From Candidatus Colwellbacteria bacterium (GTDB taxonomy: Bacteria; Patescibacteriota; Minisyncoccia; UBA6257; Colwellbacteraceae): a stretch of DNA of 64,000 nucleotides. The stretch spans positions 63,554 through 127,553 of the forward strand of contig JACOWZ010000003.1 of NCBI GenBank assembly GCA_016176525.1, read 5' to 3'. Each line of letters opens with the position of its first letter. Positions within the stretch are counted from its first letter, which is position 1. Under the pieces are notes generated by a model that saw nothing but the letters and a program-made list of their open reading frames with translations, had not been told where the DNA came from and ran no database searches. Of this stretch, positions 22,622 through 60,678 are shown in pieces. The translations under genes and the position numbers were made by a program.

Positions 22622-22652
22622 ACAAAAAATAAAAGTCCCGCGTTCACGGGAC
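22622..22652 (-). terminator. rho-independent terminator after pyrF
   Basis: GTCCCGTGAACGCGGGAC hairpin (22635-22652) followed on the minus strand by TTTTATTTTTTG. Confidence 0.6.
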
Positions 22653-22662
22653 AAATGTGCTT

Positions 22663-23439
22663 TTATGCGACCACTGCTTCTTGTTTGCGGCGATCTTCCA
22701 GACCTTGCCGAATTTCTTCGGCAATAAGATCTACAGCACGCTCCGGAGAACCAATCTCTGGTGGCGGATTTGTAATCGGCCTGCCGACTACAATATAATC
22801 GGCGCCAAGCGCGATTGCCTCGCGCGGGGTCATAACACGCTTCTGGTCGCCCTTTGCGGCCCATGCGGGCCTAACTCCAGGCGTTACCACAAGAAATTCC
22901 GGCTGGCAGTATCTGCGGATGATAGGCAGTTCGCGCGGTGAGGCAATAACCCCATCCAAACCAAGGTATCCGCCTTCCCAAGTTTCAAACTCTTGAGCAA
23001 AGAGAGCCAGATCTTTAACCAAAGTGCTTAACTCACGATCTTTAGCTTCTTGTAGCTCGGAGGGATTAGCTATGTTCATGGGCTCAAAAATGCCCATCTG
23101 TACAAAGTCGTCGTGGGAAAGGCTTGTAAGTGCGGTGACACCCAGGACAAGCGGAAAATTCTCGCCGGATTTCTTTGCAACTTTTAGCGCATCTTCCAGC
23201 ATCTTGGCCCCGCCCAACGTGTGGACGTTGAACATTTTGGCTCCCAGCTTAACCGGGGCCTTGGATGCGCCAGCGACTGTATTTGGAATATCCATAAACT
23301 TGCCGTCGTAAAAGAGTTGCTCTTTTGTAAGCCCGATTAGTTCGCGCAGGGCGTCAAGCTCACGTAGAGTCTGATCTTTTGGCGCTGTAGCAAACACCGC
23401 CAAGGTGTTGTGCATAAGCTCAAGCCCAATCTTGAACAT
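22663..23439 (-). CDS. pyrF: orotidine-5'-phosphate decarboxylase
   Basis: DGKFMDIPNTV and DYIVVGRPI motifs. The conserved N-terminus (RIIVALDVD…VGMFKIG) lies in-frame upstream of the first ATG, back to a stop at 23557-23559. Likely starts at CTG 23550 with GGAG 10 nt upstream (see findings). Confidence 0.85.
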   Translation of the reverse strand: MFKIGLELMHNTLAVFATAPKDQTLRELDALRELIGLTKEQLFYDGKFMDIPNTVAGASKAPVKLGAKMFNVHTLGGAKMLEDALKVAKKSGENFPLVLGVTALTSLSHDDFVQMGIFEPMNIANPSELQEAKDRELSTLVKDLALFAQEFETWEGGYLGLDGVIASPRELPIIRRYCQPEFLVVTPGVRPAWAAKGDQKRVMTPREAIALGADYIVVGRPITNPPPEIGSPERAVDLIAEEIRQGLEDRRKQEAVVA

Positions 23440-46033: not shown

Positions 46034-48985
46034 CTACGGAATTACCAGAACGTGCGTGCCGGCAGTACTACCTACAACAGCATTTGTAGAAGGATCTGTG
46101 GCAGTTGCTTGAATAGAGATTGTGTAAGCGCCCGAGTCAACGCCGCTGCCTACAACAACTCCCATTGTGTAAGTGCAAGGCGATGAGAGCGATGGCTCAC
46201 AACCGCTAGTTGAGCCAAATGAAACAGTGATGTCTTCTGTGGGCGATACAGAACCAGCTAGAGATATATTAACAAAACCAAGCGTGCGCTTTGTTACATG
46301 TATGTTTGTAAGATACGCGCCAGATGTCGTTTGAATTTTTATTGCTGGGTCTGACGCAACAGTAAGGTTAGAAGAAACCACTAGAGTAAATGTTGTTTCC
46401 CCGCTTGCGCCAGTGCCAGCTTCCGTAGCGCTTAACGTAACAGAGTAAGTGCCAGGCAAAACATCTGCCGCTGTATTAATGGTCACTTCACGCGCGCATG
46501 GGTCCGTCGGGTCTAGAGAACAAGTTGAATTCGGCGAGAAGCTAACCGTTATGCCCGGGTTAGCCGGCGAAACAGTTGCAGACAAGCTTGCCGTCGAAGG
46601 CTCTGTTGTAATTTTTGTTACAGTAAGATTAGTCGAAGTAGATGAACCCTGCATTATTGTGTCTGACGGCGGATCCGCAAATATAACTATGCCGGAAGAT
46701 ACAACCAACTCAAATGTAGCAGCGCCTTTCTGTGTAGCATCACCAGACCCAAGAACCGTAATTGCATAGGTGCCAACAGGGGTTGCTGCGGTTGTTGTGA
46801 CGTTCAGGTCAATAGAACATGTAGGCGTGCAACTGGTTTCTGAAAGAGTCGCTGTAATCGTAGGTTCTGCAGGGTTAACTTGTGTAGATAGCGCCACCGG
46901 ACCTTGAGCTCCAGTAAGTTCGGCTACTGTAACAGAAGTTTCAGCGCTTCCACCGGAGGAAACCGTTGCAAGCGGCGGAACAGAAGCCATTACAATAGTT
47001 GAAGGGTTAACTGTAAGTTCATATACCGCTTCTGCCGTAGCGCCAGACCCAGCTTCAACCGCACTAACTTTTATTGTGTAGGCGCCGGCAGGAGTAAGAG
47101 CGGAAGTAATTATATTAATTGCAGATGCGCATGACTGCTCTGCCCCACCAGGCGTACATGTTGTTGGAGAAAATGTTGTAGAAATTGAAGGCTCTGCAGG
47201 GAAAACGCCGGCGGAGAAAGTAACTAATTGCGGAGAACCAGTAAGCTTTGTAACAGTAACCTCTGCTGAAGAGCTGCCGCCTTGGTCAATATTCCCTGCC
47301 ACGGGGTCAACTGTTGCGACAAGAGTTGAGCTTACAACCGCAAGCGTATAAGTGGTACTGCCGGTGTCTGTTCCACCAACGCCATTTCCGGTGATTGTAA
47401 TAGTGTACTGACCCATCGGCGTCTCTGGTGTTGTTGCAACAACCATATCTGAAGTGCAGTCAGGCTCTGGGTCGCAGCTAACCGGCGCAAGCGAAACTGC
47501 AACGGTTGATTCTGCAGGCAATACACTGCTTGTAAGAGAAACGTCCGCAGACTCCCCTGTAACTTGGTGGACACCTATGATAGATGCAGTAAACTCGCCT
47601 GCCACAACTGAACCGTGTGAAGGGCTAGAGTCTAAAACTATTGTCGCGGGTTCAATAACCAATGCATATGTTGTCTCTTTCGTATTACCGTTCGGATCGG
47701 TGCCTATAATTGTAATGTCATACGAACCCGCTGGGGTTTCTGGTTCGGTTGTAAGAAGCATTATAGATGCGCAACTATTTACAGCTGGATCTAGTGGATC
47801 ATTAGGAGTGCACGATACAGGGTTAAATGTTACACCTACGGTAGGTTCAGTGGGTAAGATGTTCGCAGAAAACCCAACCGCTGCAGGTAACCCTTGCAGT
47901 CTTGTAACGACAACGCTACTTGTTACATCACTACCTTGGCCAACTTCCGAAGTTGACGGGTCAGCTTCAATACTAAAATCAAAACTGTTGACGGTTAGGG
48001 TGTAGACTGCAGACTGGTACTCGCCGCTTGTCGCCTCTGTGCCAGTAATTGTAATATCATAGTTGCCCGGAGGGGTAAGCGTTGTTGTTGAAACTGTCGC
48101 GTTAGAGGTGCAGGGTATTTCTATTGTCGGCATGCAAGAAGAAGGGTCAAATGCAACAGATACGCTAGCTTCTACAGGACTTACTTCGTATGAAAATGCC
48201 ACACTCTGCGGTACACCCGTGAGTTTGGCCACTGTTACTGTTGTATCTGCACTCTCTCCCGGATCAACAGATTCCCCGGATGGATCAACCGAAATTATAA
48301 ATGTTGAGGGCTCATAGAAACCTTCGTAGTAGCTTTGGTAGTAGCCTTGGCCATAGTAATAGCCTTGGCTGTAGTAGTAGCCTTGGTAGTAGCCCTGATA
48401 ATAACCTTGGCTGTAGTAGTAGCCTTGGCCATAGTAATAGCCCTGATAATAGCCTTGAGAGTAATAGTAGCCTTGGCCATAGTAATAGCCCTGATAATAG
48501 CCTTGAGAGTAATAGTAGCCTTGAGAGTAATAGTAGCCTTGGTAGTATCCCTGATAATAGCCTTGATAATAGCCCTGCGTGTAGTAAACACCCTCGGAGT
48601 AATAAAGGGCTTGGTAATAACCTTGATAGTAGCCTTGGGTGTAGTAAACGCCTTGGGTGTAGTAGATACCCTGGTAATAGCCTTCGGAGTAATAAAGGGC
48701 TTGGTAATAACCCTCATAAAGACCTTCGTAGTAGCCTTGAGAATAGCCGCCTCCACCTCCTCCTCCGCCTCCACCTCCTCCGCACCCGAGCTCAAACATT
48801 CTACCTGCTGAATCTCCATCAGTTTCACCATCAGTAGTAAGGGCTAAAAACTCTATATTATCATCGCATTCTATTAAAACCGCCTCAGCAGTATTAACCG
48901 CGGTTGTAACCGCGGCTAAAAAAGAGAGAGAAACAACGCCTAAAAATGCAAATCGTATTAGCGTTGTATTCTTTTTGAGCTTCAT
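46034..48985 (-). CDS. giant secreted surface protein: signal peptide, Gly12 tract, Tyr/Gly/Gln-rich repeat domain, then ~8 tandem Ig-like beta-sandwich domains
   Basis: 983 aa. Residues 69-80 are GGGGGGGGGGGG. Residues 81-226 are (G/S/Q)YY(Q/E/S)G-type repeats with ~45 % Tyr. Downstream ~90-aa modules recur with pattern …VTV.KLTG.PQ.V.FS…P.EP.I…F.P..CTP…C…T….G.Y.ITI…. Confidence 0.75.
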   Translation of the reverse strand: MKLKKNTTLIRFAFLGVVSLSFLAAVTTAVNTAEAVLIECDDNIEFLALTTDGETDGDSAGRMFELGCGGGGGGGGGGGGYSQGYYEGLYEGYYQALYYSEGYYQGIYYTQGVYYTQGYYQGYYQALYYSEGVYYTQGYYQGYYQGYYQGYYYSQGYYYSQGYYQGYYYGQGYYYSQGYYQGYYYGQGYYYSQGYYQGYYQGYYYSQGYYYGQGYYQSYYEGFYEPSTFIISVDPSGESVDPGESADTTVTVAKLTGVPQSVAFSYEVSPVEASVSVAFDPSSCMPTIEIPCTSNATVSTTTLTPPGNYDITITGTEATSGEYQSAVYTLTVNSFDFSIEADPSTSEVGQGSDVTSSVVVTRLQGLPAAVGFSANILPTEPTVGVTFNPVSCTPNDPLDPAVNSCASIMLLTTEPETPAGSYDITIIGTDPNGNTKETTYALVIEPATIVLDSSPSHGSVVAGEFTASIIGVHQVTGESADVSLTSSVLPAESTVAVSLAPVSCDPEPDCTSDMVVATTPETPMGQYTITITGNGVGGTDTGSTTYTLAVVSSTLVATVDPVAGNIDQGGSSSAEVTVTKLTGSPQLVTFSAGVFPAEPSISTTFSPTTCTPGGAEQSCASAINIITSALTPAGAYTIKVSAVEAGSGATAEAVYELTVNPSTIVMASVPPLATVSSGGSAETSVTVAELTGAQGPVALSTQVNPAEPTITATLSETSCTPTCSIDLNVTTTAATPVGTYAITVLGSGDATQKGAATFELVVSSGIVIFADPPSDTIMQGSSTSTNLTVTKITTEPSTASLSATVSPANPGITVSFSPNSTCSLDPTDPCAREVTINTAADVLPGTYSVTLSATEAGTGASGETTFTLVVSSNLTVASDPAIKIQTTSGAYLTNIHVTKRTLGFVNISLAGSVSPTEDITVSFGSTSGCEPSLSSPCTYTMGVVVGSGVDSGAYTISIQATATDPSTNAVVGSTAGTHVLVIP
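48305..48781 (-). repeat. tandem 12-18-nt coding microsatellite-like repeats (Tyr/Gly/Gln domain plus Gly12 tract)
   Basis: Iterated units such as tagtagccttggccatagtaatagccctgataatagccttgagagtaa… on the plus strand, translating to GYYQGYYYSQGYYY… on the minus strand. Confidence 0.75.
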
Positions 48986-49112
48986 AATAGTTAAAACTTA
49001 AATTTTAAGCTCTATGAACGTAAGCCTATACCAAATGTTTAATATAGGTCAACAAACACATGTGGATAACTTCTTTAGTATATTAATTTATAAATGTTTT
49101 TCCGGTTTTTAA

Positions 49113-49142
49113 TAAAAAATGCCCCAATAATTTTATTGGGGC
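49113..49142 (-). terminator. rho-independent terminator after the metalloprotease gene
   Basis: TGCCCCAATAA-tttt-TTATTGGGGCA hairpin followed on the minus strand by TTTTTTATT. Confidence 0.55.
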
Positions 49143-49158
49143 AGATGGGTAGATAGGG

Positions 49159-50415
49159 CTAGAACCTCTTCATGCCTTCCGGAATACATGTTGATGTCCA
49201 GCTCGTTTTGGGAATGAAGACTTCGTCGTCGTACAGCTTGTCGTTTTTGATCGGTTCCCGCCAGTCGTATGCTTCGGCCAGCGCGAACAGATCAAGGTTC
49301 GACAGGCAATTGCGTTCATTCCACTTGTGGCCGGTCATTACGTCGTCCGGTTGGTTTTTGAAACAGCCATAGCGCGGAGAGCAGTGGGTGGTTTCAGGCC
49401 AAGCTCCAGAGTGTCCGGCGCCGATGCAGTGGCCGAATTCATGGAGAACCAAGTTGCGTAGATCCACCGGCTGTTGGCTGTTTTGGTACTCGCCGATACC
49501 CTCGTGTTTGGTGATGCAGACTGGTTTTCCGGAATTCAGAGGGTTGCTTTCCCAGCGCGCTTCCCCGCTATGTTTTACGAAAGGGATTGGATCTCCGACC
49601 ATCGCGATAGCGATTAGAATGTCGGCGGTCCTCACCTCTTCCGGCCCAGCGTTGTATCCGGCAACCTTGATTGTCCAGGAAAGGCCGGAGAGCTGGGTGA
49701 ATTGCTGGGAGTTTTCAGCCAGGAACCATTCCCAGTATTCCGCCGCTTCCATGGCGGCTTGAACCGCGGGGTGCCGATAGGTCGCATCCGGTCCGATCCA
49801 GCTCTGGTTTTGGACCATTGCTCGGACCGAAAAATATGCGGGGGGCAAGATGACAACCTTCAGACCAACCGGTTGCACGGGGATTTTGTAGCCCCACATG
49901 TACCAGTGTGTCTCGGGCGACAGAATCTTGATTTTGATCTCCGCGTTTGCGGTTTGATCAAATTCATCTTCTGCTGAGACTTGTACGATGTAGTCACCCG
50001 CCTCTGCATAGGTATACGTCGGCTCCTTGTCGGTCGCGGTTTCTCCGTCGCCGAAGTTCCATCGAATTGTCGTTATCTTCGACGATAAGGTTTCGGCTCG
50101 GAACAGCACATTTTTCCCCTGCAATGCGGTGTATCCGTCGATATCGCGCATGATATCAGTTCCGATGACCGCTAGATTTAAGACTAGCGGTTGCACTACC
50201 GGTACACTTTCTGGCGTCTTGGGTGTTTCTACCTCCGGTGTATCGGGAGGCGGCTTCGTAATCTGTTCTTCCGGCTCCTCCGGTGGCAATACAGGTTCTG
50301 CAGTTTCTGTCTTCTCTGTGACAATGATTTCGGGTTTGCTTCCCACACAACCGCTCAAGAGCGCCTGTGCAAGAAAAACCGCAAAGACCACCGCACAAAT
50401 GTTTTTCTGGTTCAT
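49159..50415 (-). CDS. lipoprotein with PKD domain and C-terminal metzincin-type zinc metalloprotease domain (matrixin/serralysin-like HExxHxxGxxH)
   Basis: Lipobox LLSGC. PKD signature IRWNFGDGETATDKEPTYTYAEAGDYIVQVSAED. Zinc motif VLHEFGHCIGAGHS. Gene is conspicuously GC-rich versus flanks, and many spurious ORFs overlap it on both strands. Confidence 0.75.
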   Translation of the reverse strand: MNQKNICAVVFAVFLAQALLSGCVGSKPEIIVTEKTETAEPVLPPEEPEEQITKPPPDTPEVETPKTPESVPVVQPLVLNLAVIGTDIMRDIDGYTALQGKNVLFRAETLSSKITTIRWNFGDGETATDKEPTYTYAEAGDYIVQVSAEDEFDQTANAEIKIKILSPETHWYMWGYKIPVQPVGLKVVILPPAYFSVRAMVQNQSWIGPDATYRHPAVQAAMEAAEYWEWFLAENSQQFTQLSGLSWTIKVAGYNAGPEEVRTADILIAIAMVGDPIPFVKHSGEARWESNPLNSGKPVCITKHEGIGEYQNSQQPVDLRNLVLHEFGHCIGAGHSGAWPETTHCSPRYGCFKNQPDDVMTGHKWNERNCLSNLDLFALAEAYDWREPIKNDKLYDDEVFIPKTSWTSTCIPEGMKRF

Positions 50416-50523
50416 TCAGGTTTCACCCTTGTTAAGAAAACTAAGTATAGGCTAGCACATTACATGTGTTTTGTCAAAGTATTGACCGATTTTTTTTAGG
50501 GTGATACTATTTAAAAATCAAAA

Positions 50524-50976
50524 ATGAAAAACAAATTATTAATATTTTCAGGTTTGGCGCTCATCGCAATTTTTCTAGGGCTTTTTATCACAATTGGACC
50601 GGCTTTAAATAACAACACATCCGACGGCCCCAAAGTAACAGATGTATTAAATACTCCCGGGCAAGACGCAACCGACGAGGAAAGGCGGCAACATTTTGAA
50701 CTCGCCGCAATGTTGGCAGAAGAAGCAGATTTGCTTGATATTACTGGCTGCAAAGCAGACCCAGTTGTACTTAAACTTACAGACCAAGAAACTTTTGGAG
50801 TAAAAAATGATGATATTGTCCCACACGTTTTGAGAATAAGCGACGAAATAGAGTTTACAGTAGAGGCAAACTCTACGACTGGGCTTAAAGCAGACTTTGG
50901 GCATGGAGTTGGGCTCTATGGTTATGGATGTGATGGATCCACCGGCGCAATAGGGCTTTTTTTGGTAACTTTCTAA
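50524..50976 (+). CDS. small membrane-anchored protein with cupredoxin-like beta-sandwich domain (putative)
   Basis: 150 aa. N-terminal TM. Region CKADPVVLKLTDQETFGVKNDDIVPHVLRISDEIEFTVEAN…FGHGVGLYGYGCDG resembles the cupredoxin-like N-domains of the two downstream paralogs. Confidence 0.45.
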   Translation: MKNKLLIFSGLALIAIFLGLFITIGPALNNNTSDGPKVTDVLNTPGQDATDEERRQHFELAAMLAEEADLLDITGCKADPVVLKLTDQETFGVKNDDIVPHVLRISDEIEFTVEANSTTGLKADFGHGVGLYGYGCDGSTGAIGLFLVTF

Positions 50977-50985
50977 AAAATATCT

Positions 50986-52251
50986 TTGGATATGCCGAAC
51001 CCATCGCAAAAGAATAAAAGCGGGGCAACGGCAATGTCGCTTCTTATATCTTCTGTAAGCATAATAATTCTTGCAGAAGTCTGGATGCTTTTGGGGTTTA
51101 AAATACCTATTCCCTTTTTTGACACTGCAACTCTCTATGCTTCGGAAATTAAATATTTAGAAGATAACAATCTCTCTTTTTACGAACTTGCAAAATATTT
51201 TACAAAAATCTCTAATGAAGAAGGCGCAGAATATGCCTATAATCTATTAAAAATTGCGCCAATCCCACCAAATACGGATATGCACCTCCTTGGGCATGTT
51301 GTTAGCGATGAATTATACAAACAAAAAGGCAGCGAGGGCATAAAAATTTGTACGCCGGACTTTAGAAATGCATGCTCGCACTCAATCGTGGTTGGGTTAT
51401 TACTAGAAAAAGGCGATTCCGCAATGGACGAAATATCCGAAGCGTGCCGCCTTGCGCCCGGGGGCAGGGGCGCATACACTATGTGCTTCCACGGTTTGGG
51501 CCATGGCGTGCTTGCCTACAGCGACTATGACATGCAGGATGCTGTTGAGCTTTGCGCAACAACCGGCACAAAGGAATATCTCCAAAGAGAATATATTGAG
51601 TGCGTTGGCGGAACAGTTATGGAAATTGTCGGCGGCGGATTCCATAACCAAGAATTGTGGCAAAAAAAATCGGATGAATATTTAAGTGTGTCTGACCCGC
51701 TTTATCTATGCTCAAAAGAAATAATGCCCGAAATAGCGCAAGCACAGTGTTATACATATTTAACTCCGCATCTTTTTAAACGCGCTGGCGGCAGTTTAAG
51801 TAATTTAACTCCCGATGTTTATGAGCGCGCGTTTGTATATTGCGAAGGCATACCAAAGAGTGAAGCTTCTTTAAGGGCAAGTTGCTATGGTGGATTTGGC
51901 AAGGAATTCGTTGTGCTCGCAAAAGCGCGAGATGTTCGCCAAATTGGCAATATGACAGACGAAGAACTTGCGAAGGTGTACGAATGGTGCAGTTTAGCGC
52001 CGCATAGCGAGGGTATAAACGCGTGTATTAATACATCCGCGGCTTCAATATTTTGGGGCGGCGAAAATGAACCTGTTGCTGTTATTAAATTTTGCAGTAT
52101 TGTGGAGGACACTTCTATACAGCAAGAATGTTTTGCGAACCTCTTTAATTCCGTAAAGTATTACATAAATGACCTTGCTTATTTAGAAAATTTTTGTGCA
52201 AAAGTACCGAATAATTATAAAGGCACTTGCGAAGAAAAATTAGTAAACTAG
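50986..52251 (+). CDS. Cys/His-rich membrane-anchored paralog 1 (CxHGxGHG family, unknown function)
   Basis: 421 aa. TM at ~17-38 (alternative start ~51034). Motifs HLLGHVVSDELY, ACSHSIVVGLL, MCFHGLGHGVLAY. Many paired Cys. Confidence 0.65.
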   Translation: MDMPNPSQKNKSGATAMSLLISSVSIIILAEVWMLLGFKIPIPFFDTATLYASEIKYLEDNNLSFYELAKYFTKISNEEGAEYAYNLLKIAPIPPNTDMHLLGHVVSDELYKQKGSEGIKICTPDFRNACSHSIVVGLLLEKGDSAMDEISEACRLAPGGRGAYTMCFHGLGHGVLAYSDYDMQDAVELCATTGTKEYLQREYIECVGGTVMEIVGGGFHNQELWQKKSDEYLSVSDPLYLCSKEIMPEIAQAQCYTYLTPHLFKRAGGSLSNLTPDVYERAFVYCEGIPKSEASLRASCYGGFGKEFVVLAKARDVRQIGNMTDEELAKVYEWCSLAPHSEGINACINTSAASIFWGGENEPVAVIKFCSIVEDTSIQQECFANLFNSVKYYINDLAYLENFCAKVPNNYKGTCEEKLVN

Positions 52252-52255
52252 AGAT

Positions 52256-53299
52256 ATGAAAGCATATAAAATATTAGGAATAGCTGGAGCAGTGGTTTTT
52301 ATAATTTTAGGTTTTTTTGCAGTTATAAATTTTAGCACAAACTCTCACGATAAATACCCCTTATCTTCCGGTACGGCAAGTTCTAATGGAGCGATGAACC
52401 CGGTAGAAGAACGCAATAAGTGGGCAGGGCTTATTGATAAATTTGGGCCGGAGTATGCATACGCCGAATTTAAAAAAGAATATGCACCTACCCACTTTGG
52501 AATTCAGCACGCCGCCGCGCACTTGGTTGGAGAATTACTGTACGACAAACTTGGCGTAGATGGAGTAACGGTTTGCGACTCCACTTTTGCATTCGGGTGC
52601 TACCACAGCTTTTTTGGCAAAGCTCTTGCAGTAAATGGATTGAGTATAATTAAAAAACTTGATGAGGCATGCATTCAAGCATACGGCCCGCTTGGCACAG
52701 GATGCACGCACGGCATAGGCCACGGGCTGGTGGAATATTTTGGCCACCAACAATTAATTAAAGCACTTGAGGCTTGTACGCTTACAACGCAGGTAAAAAA
52801 GCTCTTTGGCTGCACATCTGGCGTATTTATGGAATACAACGTGCCAATTGTGTTTGATGGCCCAACTGCGAAAACAGAAATTAGAGAACTTAATGCCGCA
52901 AATCCGCACGAGCCGTGTAATACAATTGTGCCGGAGAAATTCAGAGAATCTTGCTACTACGAAATGGGCCAATGGTGGGATAAAGTTTTTAATAAAGATT
53001 ACAAACACATTGGACTCTTATGCGAAGAAGCGCAATCTGAATACAGAGAACCGTGTTATTTAGGTATAGGCAATGTTGCCGCGCCGTCAAATGAATATAA
53101 TGTACAAGAAACTATAAATACATGTCTTCTTATGCCAAATGAAGATGCAAAACTCTTATGTAGGGCAGGGGCATCTTGGAGTTTCTTTGCAGTGCCCGAG
53201 CAGAGGCAACTATCCCCTAAACTTTGCGAAGGTTTGGTAAGCGCAGAAACACACAGGTGCGCGCAAAAAGCCGACCTTATTGGAGTTGGAAGAACATAA
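52256..53299 (+). CDS. Cys/His-rich membrane-anchored paralog 2
   Basis: 347 aa. N-terminal TM. QHAAAHLVGELLY, GCYHSFFGKALA, GCTHGIGHGLVEY in the same order as paralog 1. Confidence 0.65.
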   Translation: MKAYKILGIAGAVVFIILGFFAVINFSTNSHDKYPLSSGTASSNGAMNPVEERNKWAGLIDKFGPEYAYAEFKKEYAPTHFGIQHAAAHLVGELLYDKLGVDGVTVCDSTFAFGCYHSFFGKALAVNGLSIIKKLDEACIQAYGPLGTGCTHGIGHGLVEYFGHQQLIKALEACTLTTQVKKLFGCTSGVFMEYNVPIVFDGPTAKTEIRELNAANPHEPCNTIVPEKFRESCYYEMGQWWDKVFNKDYKHIGLLCEEAQSEYREPCYLGIGNVAAPSNEYNVQETINTCLLMPNEDAKLLCRAGASWSFFAVPEQRQLSPKLCEGLVSAETHRCAQKADLIGVGRT

Positions 53300-53304
53300 A
53301 TAAA

Positions 53305-54513
53305 ATGCTAAAACGTTACCTTATAACCGGCCTCTTAATAATACCAATCAGTTTAATTGGATTTTTGTCTTACCAAAATGGAGGCACGGCTTATGTTGTA
53401 AGCCCTTTACAGCTTGAAGCTTATGCCAACGAAGTGATAGAAATATGTACGAATGATTCTTACAGGCCGTCTTGCTATGACAAAGAGATACCAAAGCTGA
53501 TGGACAATATATCTATGGAAGATGCTTTTAAAGTTACTGTAATTATTCAGCAAAAAGACACATCATACCCGTACTGCCACGTACTTGGGCATAACTTAAG
53601 TGCAAGAGAAGTACAAAAAGACCCATCCAACTGGAAAGAAGTCTTAGCGCGATGCCCCAGTGGAGTTTGCTCAAACGGATGTTTACACGGCGGCTTGCAG
53701 GAAAAATTCCGCGGTGAATACCCAACAGAAGAAGAATTGGTAGCTCTAAAGCCGGACCTCTTCAACATTTGTGAGAAAAAAGAAAACTGGAACCCTACCG
53801 GCCTTGAGCAAGCGTCTTGCTACCATGCCCTCGGGCACTTATCTATGTATCTTACAAAGGCTGATATTTATAAATCTCTAGATCTTTGCAAAGAGATGGC
53901 GCTAAAACCCGACGGTAGAGATTATCAGCAACTTTGCTTTGACGGGGCATTTATGCAGATCTTTCAGCCGTTGGAACCGGAAGATTTTGCGCTTGTTGAG
54001 GGCAAAGAGCCGGCGAAAGAAGAAGTATATTCTTTTTGCAGCAAGTTTACAGGACAGCAAAGAGGTTCGTGCTGGAGTGAGACTTGGCCTTTATTTAGAG
54101 AGGAACTGCAAAAACCGGAAGGCCTTGTGGCGCACTGTGAGAAATCAGATCTGGCTGAACGACAGAGATGCTACAATGCGCTTGTTTATGTTCTAACTGC
54201 ACAATTCAGTTTTGATTCGGAACGCATTAAAAACTACTGCTCTGGCCTTCCTGCAGGCACGAGAGAACTCTGTTTTGCAAACGCTTCGTCACGAATGATA
54301 GAAACTGACTACAGGAACATAGACTTAGCGGTACAACTCTGCAGCGAAGCAGCGCTATTTGATAAAGATGGTGAGTGCTTCCAAGAACTTATTAAATATT
54401 CAACATTTAATTTCCATGCCGGATCTGAACAATTCTTTAAAATATGCAACGCTATGCCAGAACCTTGGAGTAGTAAGTGTTTAAACAACCCAAACGCTAA
54501 TTATGCCAATTAA
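53305..54513 (+). CDS. Cys/His-rich membrane-anchored paralog 3
   Basis: Probable start MLKRYLITGLLIIPISLIGFL at 53305 (ORF track 53224 overlaps paralog 2). YCHVLGHNLSAREV, GCLHGGLQEKF, SCYHALGHLSMYL. Confidence 0.65.
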   Translation: MLKRYLITGLLIIPISLIGFLSYQNGGTAYVVSPLQLEAYANEVIEICTNDSYRPSCYDKEIPKLMDNISMEDAFKVTVIIQQKDTSYPYCHVLGHNLSAREVQKDPSNWKEVLARCPSGVCSNGCLHGGLQEKFRGEYPTEEELVALKPDLFNICEKKENWNPTGLEQASCYHALGHLSMYLTKADIYKSLDLCKEMALKPDGRDYQQLCFDGAFMQIFQPLEPEDFALVEGKEPAKEEVYSFCSKFTGQQRGSCWSETWPLFREELQKPEGLVAHCEKSDLAERQRCYNALVYVLTAQFSFDSERIKNYCSGLPAGTRELCFANASSRMIETDYRNIDLAVQLCSEAALFDKDGECFQELIKYSTFNFHAGSEQFFKICNAMPEPWSSKCLNNPNANYAN

Positions 54514-55966
54514 ATTAATAGCCGCTATATTTGTACCGGCAATAATAGGAATAGGATTCTTGGCAATGCCCGATCCAGAAAACAAGACCAACCTAACCAA
54601 TAATGTTTATATAGTAGAGCTTAAAGATGATGGATTTTACCCAATGGAGATTACTGTACAAAAGGGCGACTCGGTAAAATTTATAAGTGATGCATACGAT
54701 TATTTCTGGCCTGCAAGCGACCCGCACCCAACCCACGAGTTTTTAGGCGGCTTTGACCCAGAAACTGCAATTGAACGCGGTGAAAGCTGGGCTTACACTT
54801 TCAATGAAACCGGATCTTGGAACTACCATGACCACATCCACGTATCATTTAAAGGGACTATAAATGTTGTGAGTAATTCTTCGCAACAAGAAACTTCGCT
54901 TACAGAAGATTGCGAATCCGTAACAGACGAGAATAAGAAAGCATATTGCTGGTACGAAGCCATTAAAGATAAGGCGAAAAATCAGAGTATTGACGCAGCA
55001 TTTTCATTATTTACAAAAGTTTATGCAGAGGGAGCTCCCCTAGGCTGCCACTGGACATCGCACTTAATTGGAGAAGAAGCTTTTAAGAAATTTATAGAAG
55101 GCGAAAGGTTCCAAATTACGAACGCAACATCTTATTGCGGGTATGGCTTTTACCACGGCTTTATGGAGCCGTTGCTCCGTAAAAATCCAGATACAAAGCT
55201 TGCCATTGATTTTTGCGAAGAAGTAGCGCGGCAATTGGGAGACGACGGCAGAAACAACTGCTACCATGGCATCGGCCACGGCTTTAGCGAAGACCCGCCG
55301 CCAGCGGAGACTTTTGGGAACGCGAACCTAATGGCGAGGCCGGGCTTAAGCGTTTGCGAAGGTTTATTTGAAAAAGTTTCCCAGAGGTATTTGGAAACTT
55401 GCGCAACTGGCGTATACACTGTTGTCGCCCATTTTATAGAAGAAGGGCTCTATGGGTTGGAGAAGCTGGATCACCACGACCCGTTTAAATTTTGCAGAAC
55501 ACAACCCAAAAAATATGAAGTTGCATGCCATGGAGAATTTGCTCCAAAATTAGACTTAATAACAAACTGGGATGTTTCAAAAGTGCCAAGCTTTATAGGC
55601 GAACTAGAGGATGTATACACTAAAGAAATAGTAATAAGAGGAGCAGTTGGAGCAATGATGCAAAGGGACGTAGCTAAAAAAGATCATACAGCTTATATTC
55701 TAGGCTGTAGAACATTTCCAGAAGACCTACGCATTATTTGCCTTAAGGGTATTGTTTGGGGATTTATGATGCACGGATTACCCGAACAAGAGTACATAAA
55801 ACTATTGAAATTCTGCGAATCACCGATGACAAAAGTTGAAGAAAACTTCTGCTATACAGAAAGCTTTTCCAGATTCAAGGCAGTTTATGCCCCGGGAAAA
55901 TTCCAGACGATATGCTCTCTAGACGACAAATATAAAGAGTATTGCAACACAGCAAATGAAAACTAA
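54503..55966 (+). CDS. Cys/His-rich paralog 4 with N-terminal cupredoxin-like domain
   Basis: 487 aa. TM, then ~95-aa beta-sandwich-like domain (FYPMEITVQKGDSVKFISDAYDYFWPASDPHPTHEF…WNYHDHIHVSFKGTINVV). Then GCHWTSHLIGEEAF, YCGYGFYHGFMEPLL, NCYHGIGHGFSED. Confidence 0.65.
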   Translation: MPIKLIAAIFVPAIIGIGFLAMPDPENKTNLTNNVYIVELKDDGFYPMEITVQKGDSVKFISDAYDYFWPASDPHPTHEFLGGFDPETAIERGESWAYTFNETGSWNYHDHIHVSFKGTINVVSNSSQQETSLTEDCESVTDENKKAYCWYEAIKDKAKNQSIDAAFSLFTKVYAEGAPLGCHWTSHLIGEEAFKKFIEGERFQITNATSYCGYGFYHGFMEPLLRKNPDTKLAIDFCEEVARQLGDDGRNNCYHGIGHGFSEDPPPAETFGNANLMARPGLSVCEGLFEKVSQRYLETCATGVYTVVAHFIEEGLYGLEKLDHHDPFKFCRTQPKKYEVACHGEFAPKLDLITNWDVSKVPSFIGELEDVYTKEIVIRGAVGAMMQRDVAKKDHTAYILGCRTFPEDLRIICLKGIVWGFMMHGLPEQEYIKLLKFCESPMTKVEENFCYTESFSRFKAVYAPGKFQTICSLDDKYKEYCNTANEN

Positions 55967-57386
55967 AGCTATATTTGTAATTGCGGGTTTAATAGCGATT
56001 ACAGTTGCGGGAATATACGCAACCGACATTCAATCTCTAAAGCAAGGAGAGCGCGTGATTGAGTTCCGTGAAGACGGCTTTTCCCCCAACGAGCTAATGA
56101 TAAAGCTCGGCGAAAGTGTTACTTTTGTCGGGAAAATTGACAGGGCTTTTTGGCCGGCCTCCGACATGCACCCAACACACCTTAAATACCCGGAATTTGA
56201 CCCCAAAGAACCGCTACCTCCGTTTGGCAGCTGGTCGTTTAAGTTTACTCAAGCCGGAGATTGGGCTCTCCACGACCATCTAGCGCCATATTTTACCGGC
56301 GTTATACATGTAAAAGCTGAAAGTGAGTCTAGTAAAAGCGACCCTTGCGCGGAGAACTCAAATTCTTTGGACTGCTCGGAAAAATTAATACTCTCTACTA
56401 TAAGAGCAAAGGGGCTGGAGCCTGCTTTTGATTTGCTTGCTCGGATATACGATCAAAACCCTGAATTCCCAGGGTCGTGCCACACCGTTACACACAATAT
56501 GGGAATAGTTGCATATAAAAACTTTCTTAAAGACAAAGATGCTGTTATAACCCCTAAAACCGCTTTTTGTGCAAGCGGATTTTACCACGGTTTTATGGAA
56601 GCGCTTTTAACTGCTAATAGAGATCCAATAGCTGCAAAAGAATTCTGCGCTTATATAGATGAAAGATTGAGTGTATCTGCGCCTGACGCGGCGCTTCAAT
56701 GCTATCATGGCATCGGCCACGGCGCGATGGACATTGCAATATTGTCTGCTGTGGATAAAAGCGAAGAATCACTCATAGAACCGGCTTTAAGGCTTTGCGA
56801 AAAAACTTCGGATTCTGAAGAACAGTTGTATAGATGTTCATCTGGAATTTTTAACGGTATAGCTAACTTTTACATTACCGGCGAGCACGGATTATCTGCG
56901 AACAAAAAAAATCCTGCATGGGTTTGCGATAAACAGCCGGATACATATAAAGAAAGCTGTTATGGAAATATGAACTCCGTAATGTTGTGGGCTGCCGGCA
57001 ATGAATTTAGTGACGCTATAAAGTTTGTGGAAAATATTAAAAATGATTTGTATGCAATACCATCCGCCAGATATTTGGCAGGGCTCGCTGCTCTAAAGTT
57101 TTCAAACAACTACGACCAAGCCATAACTGCCTGCAGAGCAACGCAAGAAAGGCTCTACAAATCTTGCATAGAAGGCTTTGCGCACGGATTTTTAGAACAT
57201 GGAACTCCCGGGCTTGAATATAAAGATGCTTTTAGTTTTTGCAAAGCCGAATTAATGAGCCTAAACGAAAGAGAGGTATGTTTTAAATATGTTTTATCTA
57301 ATATACACGGATGGTATGCCGCAGAAAAAGCAAAAAACATTTGCGAATCTACAGAAGTAAATTACAAACACTACTGTAAGAGTTAG
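55956..57386 (+). CDS. Cys/His-rich paralog 5 with N-terminal cupredoxin-like domain
   Basis: 476 aa. TM, then (FSPNELMIKLGESVTFVGKIDRAFWPASDMHPTHLKY…WALHDHLAPYFTGVIHV). Then SCHTVTHNMGIVAY, FCASGFYHGFMEALL, QCYHGIGHGAMDIA. 11-nt overlap with paralog 4. Confidence 0.65.
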   Translation: MKTKAIFVIAGLIAITVAGIYATDIQSLKQGERVIEFREDGFSPNELMIKLGESVTFVGKIDRAFWPASDMHPTHLKYPEFDPKEPLPPFGSWSFKFTQAGDWALHDHLAPYFTGVIHVKAESESSKSDPCAENSNSLDCSEKLILSTIRAKGLEPAFDLLARIYDQNPEFPGSCHTVTHNMGIVAYKNFLKDKDAVITPKTAFCASGFYHGFMEALLTANRDPIAAKEFCAYIDERLSVSAPDAALQCYHGIGHGAMDIAILSAVDKSEESLIEPALRLCEKTSDSEEQLYRCSSGIFNGIANFYITGEHGLSANKKNPAWVCDKQPDTYKESCYGNMNSVMLWAAGNEFSDAIKFVENIKNDLYAIPSARYLAGLAALKFSNNYDQAITACRATQERLYKSCIEGFAHGFLEHGTPGLEYKDAFSFCKAELMSLNEREVCFKYVLSNIHGWYAAEKAKNICESTEVNYKHYCKS

Positions 57387-57417
57387 TGCAGACGGCACTT
57401 TTACGAAAATCTTTGAA

Positions 57418-57529
57418 TTGCTGGCAAAACCTACTTTCGCCGATAAACAACTATCATCGGCACGCAACACTTTCACTTCTCTGTTCGGAATGGGAAGAGG
57501 TGGGCCATATTGCGTTAAATCACCAGCAA
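57418..57529 (-). rRNA. rrf: 5S ribosomal RNA
   Basis: Minus-strand sequence TTGCTGGTGATTTAACGCAATATGGCCCACCTCTTCCCATTCCGAACAGAGAAGTGAAAGTGTTGCGTGCCGATGATAGT…GCCAGCAA matches the 5S consensus (CCCACCTGATCCCATGCCGAACTCAGAAGTGAAAC…GCCGATGGTAGT) with terminal helix I pairing. Confidence 0.8.
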
Positions 57530-57580
57530 ATCAAAGATTTCCAAATTTAGAACAAACATTGTAATGACCAGTTTCTCACT

Positions 57581-60678
<3,098 letters not shown>

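What the first reader, a model, noticed from the sequence alone, without database searches (positions are those of the whole stretch)
49110..50420. GC-rich island encoding a lipoprotein PKD-metzincin metalloprotease, likely horizontally acquired
The ~1.3 kb minus-strand gene has visibly higher GC and GC3 than everything around it. Sequence stretches such as ggccggttgcacggggattttgtagcccc and ccggcgccgatgcagtggccgaattcatgg illustrate this. As a result, both strands are littered with spurious long ORFs.

The protein combines three elements:
- a lipobox (LLSGC);
- a PKD domain;
- a HEFGHCIGAGHS zinc site (HExxHxxGxxH = metzincin).

It is bounded downstream by a clean terminator (49113-49142) and upstream by ordinary AT-rich intergenic DNA.

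This architecture (PKD N-terminal to a matrixin-like catalytic domain, lipid-anchored) is unusual. The compositional contrast argues for recent HGT.
Basis: partly seen in the sequence, partly recalled or inferred. Interest (0 to 1): 0.55.

Follow-up and report, generated by a model that had tools for sequence, protein, structure and literature searches.

The report
Foreign matrixin-like protease gene in CPR bacterium
A tiny-genome (CPR) bacterium carries one GC-rich gene for a predicted surface-anchored zinc protease whose few relatives are almost all in GC-rich Thermoplasmatota archaea, so it is a well-supported case of horizontal gene transfer of an unnamed, uncharacterised branch of the metzincin proteases rather than a new kind of system.

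Summary
The ORF at 49159-50415 (-) encodes 418 aa: signal peptide with lipobox LSGC (Cys23), a Pro/Glu-rich linker, a PKD domain (Pfam E 1.9e-12), and a 251-aa domain with HEFGHCIGAGH. A hairpin terminator follows. GC3 is 0.61 against 0.405 expected from host codon usage (z = 9.3), the window's strongest outlier.

HGT is supported. Apart from one other CPR genome, every named homolog is Thermoplasmatota. Carriers have GC 0.54-0.72, and the gene matches its host's composition wherever neighbours could be compared. The second CPR copy is also a GC island. The nearest non-CPR relative, P0027, already has lipobox, linker, PKD and catalytic domain, so the architecture was imported whole. Three related CPR genomes keep the adjacent operon but lack the gene. 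A 16-nt direct repeat (15/16) brackets gene and terminator.

Activity, substrate, lipidation and the immediate donor are untested. Interest is moderate.

The parts
49159..50415 (-). Complete ORF, 418 aa plus stop (49159-49161): a predicted lipoprotein with a PKD domain and a matrixin-like metzincin domain
   Evidence: 100% identical to P0001, 'PKD domain-containing protein [Candidatus Colwellbacteria bacterium]'. GC3 0.616, z = 9.3 against host codon usage.
50347..50415 (-). Signal peptide aa 1-23 (MNQKNICAVVFAVFLAQALLSGC). The lipobox L20-S21-G22-C23 lies at 50347-50358.
   Evidence: Read directly from the sequence. It is the only lipobox among 41 long ORFs of the window. Lipidation itself is inferred, not shown.
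50161..50346 (-). Pro/Glu/Thr-rich low-complexity linker, about aa 24-85: the presumed stalk between the membrane anchor and the folded domains
   Evidence: Translation. P0027 has an equivalent acidic/Pro-rich linker. The boundaries are approximate.
49915..50160 (-). PKD (Ig-like beta-sandwich) domain, about aa 86-167. The Pfam match covers aa 99-160.
   Evidence: PKD_4 E 1.9e-12 and PKD E 9e-12. PDB sequence hits to the ColH/ColG collagenase PKD domains, E 1e-8.
49162..49914 (-). Catalytic domain, aa 168-418: a metzincin fold from an unnamed, divergent M10-like family
49411..49443 (-). Extended zinc-binding motif H325-E-F-G-H329-C-I-G-A-G-H335 (HExxHxxGxxH)
   Evidence: Sequence. H325, E326, H329, H335 and C330 are invariant in 33 of 33 homologs. 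The motif lies on and just after helix 150-163 of the model.
49336..49344 (-). D358-V359-M360: the candidate Met-turn, 25 residues after the third zinc His and just before the C-terminal helix
   Evidence: D358 is invariant (33/33). M360 is Met in 28 homologs and Leu in 5. It sits in the loop between the hairpin at 177-185 and helix 206-215 of the model. The turn geometry was not measured.
49110..49143 (-). Intrinsic terminator: 10-bp stem TGCCCCAATA / TATTGGGGCA (49120-49143), a 4-nt loop, then a T-run
   Evidence: RNA fold dG -16 kcal/mol, z -2.7, 0 of 200 shuffles as stable.
49092..49107 (.). Left copy of the flanking direct repeat, AAATGTTTTTCCGGTT, immediately 3' of the terminator
   Evidence: family D11. 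The 16-mer occurs only at these two sites in 64 kb at up to 2 mismatches. A 15/16 match was reached in 0 of 300 shuffles and 0 of 300 random spaced pairs.
50397..50412 (.). Right copy of the flanking direct repeat, AAATGTTTTTCTGGTT. It overlaps codons 2-6 of the ORF.
   Evidence: Its meaning as a recombination or insertion scar is inferred, not shown.
50416..50523 (.). AT-rich (GC about 0.3) intergenic region between the metzincin gene and the divergently transcribed, conserved CPR operon that starts at 50524. It is the synteny breakpoint.
   Evidence: The operon is conserved in L044, L045 and L046, where the upstream neighbour differs in each and no metzincin is present. No consensus promoter was found on the minus strand.

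Best explanation
The gene encodes a cell-surface zinc endopeptidase of the metzincin type, and it reached this Candidatus Colwellbacteria (CPR/Patescibacteria) genome by horizontal transfer.

Proposed working:
- The Sec signal peptide is cleaved at the lipobox, and Cys23 is lipidated. This tethers the protein to the outer face of the cytoplasmic membrane.
- A Pro/Glu-rich stalk of about 60 aa projects a PKD beta-sandwich, which is a binding or spacer module.
- A 251-aa catalytic domain follows. His325, His329 and His335 hold a zinc ion and Glu326 acts as general base.
- Met360 (or Leu in a few homologs) packs under the metal site, and conserved cysteines form disulfides.
- The likely role is degradation of extracellular or host-surface proteins, for peptide scavenging or for interaction with a host cell. 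The substrate is unknown.

Origin:
- The whole cassette (signal/lipobox, linker, PKD, protease) comes from a GC-richer donor. This donor belongs to a small family centred on Thermoplasmatota archaea, and the transfer may have passed through another, GC-richer CPR.
- The gene inserted at the boundary between a surface-protein gene and a conserved CPR operon.
- It has not yet ameliorated to host composition.

Shown: the ORF, the motifs, the PKD domain, the fold, the composition anomaly, the phyletic distribution, the tree, the synteny break and the reproducibility of the assembly.

Inferred: catalysis, lipidation, disulfides, substrate, donor identity and the mode of insertion.
For: Protease identity:
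- HExxHxxGxxH is invariant in 33 of 33 homologs. D358 is invariant, and M360 is Met in 28 of 33.
- Model pLDDT 92, with the order b1-aA-b2-b3-b4-b5-aB(HExxH)-loop(Met)-aC.
- Foldseek: the top 23 hits are nearly all MMP catalytic domains.
- Of 34 distant relatives, 22 match Peptidase_M10 at E <= 1e-3. P0033 (35.5 bits) and P0036 (25.1 bits) pass the cut-off of 24.
- PKD E 1.9e-12.

Transfer:
- GC3 0.614 observed against 0.405 +/- 0.022 expected (z 9.3).
- Only 16 of 1.84 billion representatives match at E <= 1e-30.
- All named family members are Thermoplasmatota except the 2 CPR proteins.
- Contigs of P0005 and P0012 carry archaeal markers: aIF2-beta, an archaeal CCA-adding enzyme and EMC6_arch.
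- Non-CPR carriers have GC 0.535-0.72. On the five contigs with called neighbours, the gene matches host composition.
- The second CPR copy (L001) is also a GC island: GC3 0.54 against 0.31-0.37 in its neighbours.
- NJ tree: (P0027,(window,P0002)), with bootstraps of 100% and 97%.
- P0027 aligns from the lipobox Cys to the C-terminus (34% identity over 404 aa, E 3e-68). It has a PKD domain above Pfam's threshold.
- Four-fold degenerate sites between the two CPR copies are 26% identical, which is chance level. Long shared residence in low-GC hosts should therefore have erased the GC3 excess.
- The upstream 421-aa neighbour has 1,122 CPR homologs.
- Its operon is conserved in three CPR genomes, with no metzincin in the 10 kb held on each side where the contig allows.
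- A flanking 15/16 direct repeat is unique in the window.

Not an assembly artefact:
- An independent 9-kb assembly is 100% identical across both junctions.

Not expression-linked codon bias:
- The other GC3-high ORFs are pyrE-like and pyrF genes, an ECF sigma factor and hypotheticals.
- Ribosomal protein genes in L001 have low GC3.

Precedent:
- HGT into Patescibacteria, including inter-domain transfer of membrane-associated proteins, has been reported (PMC12455944).
Against: - No Pfam or NCBIfam protease model reaches its threshold for this protein.
- Only about 140 of 251 residues superpose on MMPs, with Foldseek TM about 0.37 (query-normalised) and 0.5 (target-normalised).
- The Met-turn Met is Leu in 5 of 33 homologs, and the turn geometry was not measured.
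- No prodomain or cysteine switch is recognisable, so the mode of latency and activation is unknown.
- No other lipobox protein occurs in the window, and lgt/lspA were not looked for. Lipidation is therefore unproven.
- Deep nodes of the tree are unsupported (16-22%), so nesting within the archaeal sequences is not formally shown.
- P0027's contig is only probably archaeal: it has an AF0891-family gene, GC 0.65 and an HTH gene near the metzincin as in L005.
- One full-length but frameshifted copy sits in a MAG labelled delta-proteobacterium, with bacterial-looking neighbours.
- GC-rich CPR genomes exist (L045, GC 0.57), so the immediate donor could be a CPR.
- No clean empty site was found, because synteny upstream of the operon is not conserved among the available relatives.
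- No mobile-element gene lies next to the island.
Confidence: 0.8

Rival explanations
1. The immediate donor was another bacterium, most plausibly a GC-richer CPR, and not an archaeon. On this view the clade (P0027, window, P0002) has circulated among bacteria. Any archaeal link is older, or runs in the opposite direction for that clade.
For: - Most HGT detected in Patescibacteria is between Patescibacteria (PMC12455944).
- CPR genomes with GC 0.57 exist (L045).
- The two CPR copies are monophyletic at 97% bootstrap, yet saturated at synonymous sites. That fits a longer history within CPR followed by later CPR-to-CPR moves.
- A canonical bacterial lipobox is present.
- P0027's contig has no decisive archaeal marker.
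- A delta-proteobacterial MAG carries a copy.
Against: - All named close family members other than the two CPR proteins are Thermoplasmatota.
- P0027's contig has an AF0891-family gene and a Peptidase_S15 gene, like the archaeal contig L003, and its double-HTH regulator has a 27% match next to the metzincin in L005.
- No third CPR copy was found in 5.8 billion clusters or 1.84 billion representatives.
Confidence: 0.25
2. The gene is native and vertically inherited in this CPR lineage. On this view its high GC3 reflects gene-specific selection, such as codon adaptation or mRNA structure, and the archaeal homologs received it from CPR.
For: - The two CPR copies group together.
- Each gene has a host-style AT-rich hairpin terminator.
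Against: - The GC3 excess, z 9.3, is nearly twice that of any other ORF. The other GC3-high ORFs are not highly expressed genes.
- Only 2 CPR carriers exist, against 1,122 homologs for the neighbouring gene.
- The gene is absent beside the conserved operon in three relatives.
- The two CPR copies lie in unrelated contexts: a surface-protein/operon boundary here, and upstream of infC-rpmI-rplT in L001.
- The gene's composition matches the archaeal hosts and not the CPR hosts.
- Family diversity is far greater outside CPR.
Confidence: 0.04
3. The island is a metagenome assembly or binning chimera: a foreign fragment joined to a CPR contig.
For: - GC steps are sharp at both ends.
- Two Logan contigs end close to the island's edges.
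Against: - An independent 9,006-bp assembly from another run is 100% identical from 48494 to 57499. It spans both junctions and native genes on both sides.
- A third run reproduces the upstream junction (L042).
- The contig breaks near the island are untrimmed Nextera adapters and not graph branches.
- NCBI holds the gene on a 644,793-bp contig.
- The flanks have host-like AT-rich intergenic DNA and a terminator.
Confidence: 0.01
4. The protein has a metzincin fold but does not work as a general protease at the cell surface. It could be a secreted toxin or effector against a host cell, a specific processing enzyme for the neighbouring surface proteins, or a peptidoglycan or pseudomurein peptidase.
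For: - The substrate is entirely unknown.
- Its neighbours are a 983-aa Gly/Tyr-rich, Ig-repeat surface protein and an operon of secreted Cys-rich proteins.
- CPR bacteria are episymbionts, and some attach to archaea (bioRxiv 10.1101/2022.04.20.488981, listed).
Against: - The neighbours are not co-inherited with the gene. The archaeal homologs and the second CPR copy have different neighbours.
- Nothing in the sequence distinguishes these roles from bulk proteolysis.
Confidence: 0.2

Closest known systems
Matrixins (MMPs; MEROPS M10, Pfam PF00413 Peptidase_M10)
   Same: - The HExxHxxGxxH motif, followed by Ser in this protein, as in MMPs.
- The same order of secondary-structure elements.
- Distant relatives of the family pass the Pfam M10 threshold.
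- Extracellular location.
   Different: - The score against PF00413 is 16.6-17.7 bits, below the cut-off of 24.
- The domain is about 90 residues larger (251 aa against about 160), and only about 140 residues superpose.
- There is no PRCGxPD cysteine-switch prodomain, no hemopexin domain and no recognisable second-zinc or calcium-site motifs.
- The residue after the third His is Thr in most family members.
- Family-specific invariants: Cys right after the second His (HEFGHC), R-x-C-L-S-N-L-N, E-A-x-x-Y-W-x-W, and a C-terminal C-x-P.
Snapalysin (M7) and other minimal bacterial metzincins
   Same: - Prokaryotic secreted metzincin.
- One distant relative hits Peptidase_M7.
   Different: - Snapalysin has about 130 residues and uses Asp as its third zinc ligand, according to the metzincin literature (my own knowledge).
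- This protein has a third His, is twice the size, and carries PKD and lipobox modules.
Adamalysins / reprolysins (M12B; ADAM17, atrolysin)
   Same: - Sub-threshold Reprolysin_2/3/4/5 hits in 12-26 of 33 members.
- Multiple disulfides in the catalytic domain.
   Different: - No adamalysin Pfam model reaches its threshold.
- Sequence identity is 12-13%.
- There is no Asp after the third His (own knowledge of the family motif).
- There are no disintegrin or Cys-rich domains.
PKD-bearing bacterial collagenases (ColG/ColH, M9)
   Same: - They combine a zinc endopeptidase with PKD modules.
- The PKD domain here is most similar to the ColH and ColG PKD domains among solved structures (E 1e-8).
   Different: - The M9 catalytic domain is a gluzincin and not a metzincin (own knowledge).
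- In collagenases the PKD domains lie C-terminal to the catalytic domain. Here the PKD domain is N-terminal.
Reported horizontal gene transfer into Patescibacteria
   Same: Single genes or small islands of atypical composition, including inter-domain exchange of membrane-associated proteins (PMC12455944).
   Different: - That study names DPANN archaea (Micrarchaeota, Nanoarchaeota) as the archaeal partners of Patescibacteria in the passages retrieved, with Patescibacteria as predicted donors.
- Here the family is centred on Thermoplasmatota, and the CPR genome is the recipient.
- In that paper the words 'peptidase' and 'protease' do not occur at all.

Membership tests
Metzincin clan (Bode et al. 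1993 definition, as cited in PMC1867822) | Extended zinc-binding motif HEXXHXXGXXH/D | tested here: met
   HEFGHCIGAGH at aa 325-335. H325, E326, H329 and H335 are invariant in 33 of 33 homologs. Definition: PMC1867822.
Metzincin clan | A conserved Met in a tight turn (Met-turn) beneath the zinc site, between the third ligand and the C-terminal helix | tested here: inconclusive
   M360 lies 25 residues after H335, in the loop before helix 206-215 of the model, and follows the invariant D358. It is Met in 28 homologs and Leu in 5.
Metzincin clan | Common fold: a five-stranded sheet, backing helix A and active-site helix B in the upper subdomain, and C-terminal helix C in the lower subdomain | tested here: met
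   [not shown]
Metzincin clan | Zinc-dependent endopeptidase activity | not testable with these tools
   This needs an enzyme assay. All catalytic residues are intact.
Matrixins (Pfam PF00413 Peptidase_M10 / MEROPS M10A) | Sequence match to the family model at or above its curated threshold | tested here: not met
   16.6 bits (full length) and 17.7 bits (catalytic domain), against a cut-off of 24. The match covers only the motif region. None of the 33 close homologs does better than E 0.0016. Distant relatives P0033 (35.5 bits) and P0036 (25.1 bits) do pass.
Matrixins | Pro-domain with a cysteine switch (PRCGxPD) that keeps the enzyme latent | tested here: not met
   No such motif occurs in the 418-aa sequence. 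In most homologs the catalytic domain follows directly after the signal peptide, and here it follows the PKD domain. The motif itself is from my own knowledge.
Matrixins | Catalytic-domain fold closest to MMPs | tested here: met
   [not shown]
Bacterial lipoproteins (Lgt/LspA pathway) | N-terminal signal peptide ending in a lipobox [LVI][ASTVI][GAS]C | tested here: met
   MNQKNICAVVFAVFLAQALL-S-G-C23.
Bacterial lipoproteins (Lgt/LspA pathway) | The host encodes Lgt and LspA, and the protein is actually acylated | not tested
   Only the 64-kb window was available. No other lipobox protein occurs among its 41 long ORFs, and the window's ORFs were not all scanned for Lgt or LspA.
PKD domain (Pfam PF00801 / PF18911) | Sequence match above the curated threshold | tested here: met
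   PKD_4 47.5 bits (cut-off 27) and PKD 45.3 bits (cut-off 23.5), aa 99-160.
Horizontally acquired gene / genomic islet | Composition deviates from the host beyond what the amino-acid content explains | tested here: met
   GC3 z = 9.3; largest codon-usage distance in the window.
Horizontally acquired gene / genomic islet | Patchy distribution in the recipient lineage, with closest relatives in another lineage of matching composition | tested here: met
   2 CPR carriers against about 30 Thermoplasmatota-type homologs, in carriers with GC 0.54-0.72. The gene is absent beside the conserved operon in 3 CPR genomes.
Horizontally acquired gene / genomic islet | An empty site in a close relative, or mobility genes or att sites at the borders | tested here: inconclusive
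   No sufficiently close relative was available: orthologs of the neighbour are 55-63% identical and upstream synteny is not conserved. There is no integrase or transposase. A 15/16 direct repeat of 16 nt brackets the gene and its terminator, but its role is unproven.

The most novel reading that the evidence does not exclude
The cassette was transferred directly from a Thermoplasmatota archaeon to Parcubacteria-type CPR bacteria, and this happened more than once. Both CPR copies are still GC-rich although their synonymous sites are saturated relative to each other. Repeated transfer would point to a physical episymbiont-host association between these CPR lineages and Thermoplasmatota archaea. 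In that case the surface-anchored PKD-metzincin would act on the archaeal cell surface, in attachment or in S-layer or host-protein degradation. This would be a new, testable CPR-archaeon host link, and a founding functional assignment for an unnamed metzincin family.
Probability: 0.1. Interest if true: 0.65.

Novelty: new variant of a known kind. Interest (0 to 1): 0.35.

Why it matters
1. Public annotation calls this protein only 'PKD domain-containing protein', and its archaeal relatives 'hypothetical protein'. The work here identifies them as an unnamed, divergent matrixin-like metzincin family. It has about 33 close members, and about 100 clusters at 50% identity match its profile at E <= 0.001. 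The family has its own invariant motifs and would merit a family model.

2. CPR bacteria have minimal genomes and depend on host cells, so extracellular hydrolases acquired by HGT are candidate tools for nutrient scavenging or host interaction. A gene with archaeal affinities hints at ecological contact with archaea.

3. The case is a clean, quantified example of an un-ameliorated single-gene islet in a CPR genome. Two independent lines are useful for calibrating HGT detection in streamlined genomes: a second CPR copy that is also a GC island, and saturated synonymous sites between the two copies.

None of this overturns current understanding.

Tried and rejected
- Contig ends as evidence of population heterogeneity. 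Logan contigs L042 and L043 end almost at the island's borders. The unaligned 13-19 nt at each end are Nextera adapter sequence (CTGTCTCTTATACACATCT), so this is an artefact.
- Empty-site test. Orthologs of the upstream 421-aa neighbour were traced to three CPR genomes. The operon is conserved, but what lies upstream differs in each, so no precise empty site could be aligned.
- Calibrating host divergence between the two CPR carriers. L001 and the window share no genes.
- A shared cassette boundary between the two CPR copies. The 3' flanks show no similarity, and each has its own hairpin terminator.
- Expression-linked codon bias as the cause of high GC3. The other GC3-high ORFs are pyrE-like and pyrF genes, an ECF sigma factor and hypotheticals.
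- Sequence-level link to solved structures. The single sequence found only PKD domains. The family profile found only motif-level matches (myroilysin E 0.011, MMPs E 0.4-2).
- NCBIfam. No protease family matched; the best hit was a myxosortase-dependent metalloprotease motif at E 0.07.
- Promoter scan. No sigma-70-like site on the minus strand upstream of the gene.
- AFDB50 fold search. The library was not available.
- Literature searches for the sample accessions found nothing, and searches for a described family of this type found nothing relevant.
- Proving that P0027's contig is archaeal. Only weak matches (27-30% identity) to named archaeal loci were found.
- The first Biopython bootstrap run timed out. 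It was redone with a faster NJ and 200 replicates.
Full report
**1. What is there**

The window comes from a Candidatus Colwellbacteria (CPR/Patescibacteria) genome. The ORF's product is 100% identical to an NCBI protein from that organism, which lies on a 644,793-bp contig. The window also carries bacterial 23S and 5S rRNA genes and seven tRNAs.

The finding corresponds to a single minus-strand ORF at 49159..50415, encoding 418 aa. Its parts are:
- a signal peptide ending in the lipobox L-S-G-C23;
- a Pro/Glu/Thr-rich linker of about 60 residues;
- a PKD domain (Pfam PKD_4 E 1.9e-12 and PKD E 9e-12, aa 99-160);
- a 251-aa C-terminal domain carrying HEFGHCIGAGH at aa 325-335 (nt 49411-49443).

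Downstream lies a 10-bp-stem hairpin with a T-run (49110-49143). Its dG is -16 kcal/mol, and none of 200 shuffles folds as well.

**2. Is the composition really anomalous?**

Yes.
- Gene GC is 0.532 and GC3 is 0.616. The mean GC3 over 42 long ORFs is 0.40, SD 0.069.
- Holding the amino-acid sequence fixed and drawing codons from the window's own usage predicts GC3 0.405 +/- 0.022. The observed value is 9.3 SD above that, and the runner-up ORF reaches 5.2.
- Codon-usage distance is also the largest in the window.
- The excess runs along the whole ORF: 0.50 in the signal peptide and linker, 0.60 in the PKD domain, and 0.66 in the catalytic domain. GC drops to 0.25-0.33 in both flanks.
- Ten ORFs of at least 60 aa overlap the gene, against 4.5 +/- 1.9 for equal-sized tiles. 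That confirms the 'spurious ORFs' remark.
- In raw GC the gene is not the window's maximum. A Pro/Glu-rich ORF at 6727-8100 and the 23S rRNA are as high or higher. It is the maximum in GC3.
- The other GC3-elevated ORFs are a pyrE-like/pyrF pair, an ECF sigma factor and hypotheticals. None is a highly expressed gene, so expression-linked codon bias is an unlikely explanation.

**3. Is it an assembly artefact?**

No.
- An independent 9,006-bp Logan assembly from another sequencing run is 100% identical to window 48494-57499. It spans both junctions and native genes on both sides.
- Two shorter contigs end near the island's edges, but their unaligned tips are Nextera adapters.

**4. What is the C-terminal domain?**

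Sequence searches alone do not name it.
- No protease family in Pfam or NCBIfam reaches its threshold. Peptidase_M10 scores 16.6-17.7 bits against a cut-off of 24.
- The PDB sequence search finds only PKD domains.
- A profile of 33 homologs gives only motif-level hits to solved metzincins.

The family is tiny.
- There were 11 homologs in the first search and 33 with a profile.
- In an exhaustive HMMER scan of 1.84 billion representatives, 16 matched at E <= 1e-30 and 103 at E <= 1e-3.

Conserved residues across the 33 close members:
- H325, E326, H329, H335, D358, C330, C370 and C410 are invariant.
- C300 is conserved in 32 of 33.
- M360, in the D-V-M-S/T motif 25 residues after the third His, is Met in 28 and Leu in 5.

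Structure prediction supports a metzincin fold.
- The 12-sequence alignment gave a mediocre model (pLDDT 64). The 33-sequence alignment gave pLDDT 92 and pTM 0.91.
- The order of elements is strand 18-22, helix 49-67, strands 80-85, 99-106, 114-123 and 131-140, helix 150-163 (carrying HExxH), a hairpin at 177-185 that contains the window protein's Cys345 and Cys351, a loop with Met360, and helix 206-215. This is the metzincin topology.
- Foldseek's top 23 hits are nearly all MMP catalytic domains, with E from 7e-4 and target-normalised TM about 0.5.

More distant relatives link the family to M10. Of 34 such relatives, which share the family's VxIxPPA, HEFGHCxGxGH and CxSNLN signatures, 22 match Peptidase_M10 at E <= 1e-3. 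P0033 (35.5 bits) and P0036 (25.1 bits) pass the cut-off.

Conclusion: this is a divergent matrixin-like metzincin from an unnamed family.
- It meets the clan's motif and fold criteria (definition: Bode 1993, as cited in PMC1867822).
- The Met-turn criterion is only partly tested.
- It fails the M10 model threshold and has no cysteine-switch prodomain, so I do not file it as a matrixin.

**5. Where does it come from?**

Family distribution and composition:
- Every named close homolog is from Thermoplasmatota, apart from one partial protein from a second CPR genome. That protein is P0002, 56% identical, from a Candidatus Paceibacterota bacterium.
- A scan of GTDB species representatives found full-length or partial relatives mostly in Thermoplasmatota, Thermoplasmatales and 'Halobacteriales' MAGs. 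It also found one frameshifted copy in a MAG labelled delta-proteobacterium.
- Contigs of P0005 and P0012 carry archaeal markers: aIF2-beta/eIF-5, an archaeal CCA-adding enzyme and EMC6_arch.
- All non-CPR carriers are GC-rich (0.535-0.72). On the five contigs where neighbours could be compared, the gene matches its host. Examples: L003 gene 0.684 against contig 0.699; L005 0.544 against 0.535; L039 0.646 against 0.648.
- In the second CPR genome the homolog is again a GC island: GC 0.509 and GC3 0.543, against neighbours at 0.34-0.38 and 0.31-0.37. Those neighbours include infC, rpmI and rplT.

Phylogeny and architecture:
- A neighbour-joining tree (256 columns, 200 bootstraps) groups the two CPR proteins at 97% and makes P0027 their sister at 100%. 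Deeper nodes are unsupported.
- P0027 sits on a GC 0.65 contig with an AF0891-family gene and a Peptidase_S15 gene, as in the archaeal L003. Its double-HTH regulator gene has a weak (27%) match next to the metzincin in L005.
- P0027 aligns with the window protein from the lipobox Cys to the C-terminus: 34% identity over 404 aa, E 3e-68.
- P0027 has its own PKD domain above Pfam's threshold. Its reading frame is open upstream, which would supply an Arg-rich n-region.
- The 'unusual' lipobox-linker-PKD-protease architecture was therefore imported as a unit. That agrees with the raised GC3 along the whole ORF.

**6. Timing and number of events**

- Four-fold degenerate sites at identical residues are 26% identical between the two CPR copies. 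Chance expectation is 27%, so synonymous sites are saturated.
- If both copies descended vertically from one ancient acquisition in low-GC hosts, their GC3 should have relaxed to host values. It has not.
- The simplest reading is that each copy has resided only briefly in its present genome, compared with the divergence between the two copies. That implies separate acquisitions from related, unsampled, GC-richer donors. These could be archaea, or GC-richer CPR such as the GC 0.57 genome seen in L045.
- The two copies also lie in unrelated genomic contexts.

**7. Insertion site**

- The upstream neighbour (421 aa) belongs to a CPR-wide family with 1,122 hits.
- It is part of an operon of paralogous Cys-rich proteins (50524-57386) that is conserved in three other CPR genomes at 41-59% identity.
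- None of those genomes has the metzincin in the DNA held around the operon (10 kb on each side where the contig allows). What lies upstream of the operon differs in each.
- The gene therefore occupies a synteny breakpoint, but no base-precise empty site is available.
- A 16-nt direct repeat, AAATGTTTTTC[C/T]GGTT, lies at 49092-49107 (just 3' of the terminator) and at 50397-50412 (codons 2-6). It is 15/16 identical and brackets the unit.
- The 16-mer occurs nowhere else in the 64 kb at up to 2 mismatches.
- A match this good between the two borders was reached in 0 of 300 shuffles and 0 of 300 random spaced pairs.
- It may be a scar of microhomology-mediated or site-specific insertion. This is an inference only, and no integrase or transposase is nearby.

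**8. How it most likely works**

Shown: a secretory/lipobox signal, a PKD domain, a metzincin fold and intact catalytic residues.

Inferred:
- export by Sec, then lipidation at Cys23 and tethering to the outside of the membrane;
- a flexible stalk;
- the PKD domain acting as a binding or spacer module, as in the clostridial collagenases whose PKD domains are its nearest solved relatives;
- zinc held by His325, His329 and His335, with Glu326 as general base and Met360 under the site;
- disulfide stabilisation.

The substrate is unknown. Scavenging of extracellular protein, or action on a host cell surface, are the obvious options for an episymbiotic, auxotrophic CPR bacterium. No other lipobox protein occurs among 41 long ORFs of the window. 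Whether the host lipidates proteins was not tested.

**9. Comparison with what is known, and novelty**

- HGT into Patescibacteria is documented, including inter-domain exchange of membrane-associated proteins (PMC12455944).
- Some Parcubacteria live attached to archaea (bioRxiv 10.1101/2022.04.20.488981, listed).
- Metzincins with accessory PKD domains are common.
- What is new is modest. The family is unnamed and unannotated: public names are 'PKD domain-containing protein' and 'hypothetical protein'. It shows a Thermoplasmatota-to-CPR distribution, and it is a well-quantified, un-ameliorated single-gene islet.
- I rate it a new variant of a known kind, with interest about 0.35.

**10. Confidence**

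| Claim | Confidence |
|---|---|
| The domain has a metzincin fold with a functional-looking active site | about 0.9 |
| The gene was horizontally acquired by this CPR genome | about 0.85 |
| The family's centre of diversity, and the ultimate source, is Thermoplasmatota-type archaea | about 0.6 |
| Direct archaeon-to-CPR transfer that reflects a physical association | about 0.1 |

Noticed in passing
window 46034-48985 (-): A 983-aa secreted protein lies immediately downstream of the metzincin. It has a signal peptide, a run of 13 Gly, and about 190 aa of Gly/Tyr/Gln-rich low-complexity repeats (GYYQGYYYSQ...), whose DNA repeats lie at 48400-48750. About eight tandem Ig-like modules of roughly 85 aa follow, each with two Cys. 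Its only Pfam hit is a weak FlgD_ig match.
   Followed up: partly
window 21879-23439 (-): A pyrE-like (phosphoribosyltransferase) and pyrF (OMP decarboxylase) gene pair forms a second compositional island. GC is about 0.51 and GC3 0.51-0.54, with z of 4.0-5.2 against host codon usage. It is possibly another acquired segment.
   Followed up: partly
window 6727-8100 (+): The highest raw-GC kilobase of the window (0.597, AT-skew 0.375) lies here. The 457-aa ORF encodes an extremely Pro/Glu-rich protein (PEPEPE... and APP repeats) with one transmembrane segment near its C-terminus. It has no Pfam match. The high GC comes from GC1 and GC2, that is, from amino-acid content, and not from GC3.
   Followed up: partly
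window 50524-57386 (+): An operon of a small 150-aa protein followed by several paralogous, Cys-rich, membrane-anchored or secreted proteins of about 350-490 aa. It is conserved in order across distant CPR genomes (L044, L045, L046). The 421-aa member has 1,122 homologs, none of them with a Pfam domain. This is a widespread CPR-specific surface system of unknown function.
   Followed up: partly
window 57419-60665 (-): The 23S and 5S rRNA genes are adjacent, but no 16S rRNA gene is in the window. The 23S match spans 3,021 nt against a 2,925-position model, so it may carry a small insertion.
   Followed up: no
L009 9920-10770: The family member in a MAG labelled 'uncultured delta proteobacterium' (a long-read Microflora Danica assembly, GC 0.68) is split between two reading frames. 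This is either a pseudogene or a homopolymer sequencing error. Its neighbours look bacterial: a phosphoesterase and an adenylate-cyclase/AAA regulator.
   Followed up: partly
L005 5721-7341; L039 6136-8779; L007 3678-5227: In several archaeal-type contigs an ArsR/MarR-type HTH regulator gene lies next to or near the metzincin gene. This hints at dedicated regulation in the donor lineage. No such regulator accompanies the CPR copies.
   Followed up: no
L042 and L043 contig ends: These Logan contigs end in untrimmed Nextera adapter sequence, which mimics contig breaks at the island's borders.
   Followed up: yes
alignment A1/A2, window protein residues Cys345 and Cys351: By eye in the 12-sequence alignment A1, the Cys pair in H-C-S-P-R-Y-G-C-F appears to be present or absent together across homologs. 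Several archaeal members seem to lack both. In the model the two residues sit on the two strands of a hairpin, which suggests a facultative disulfide. A column count was attempted, but it used the wrong columns, so the covariation has not been quantified.
   Followed up: partly
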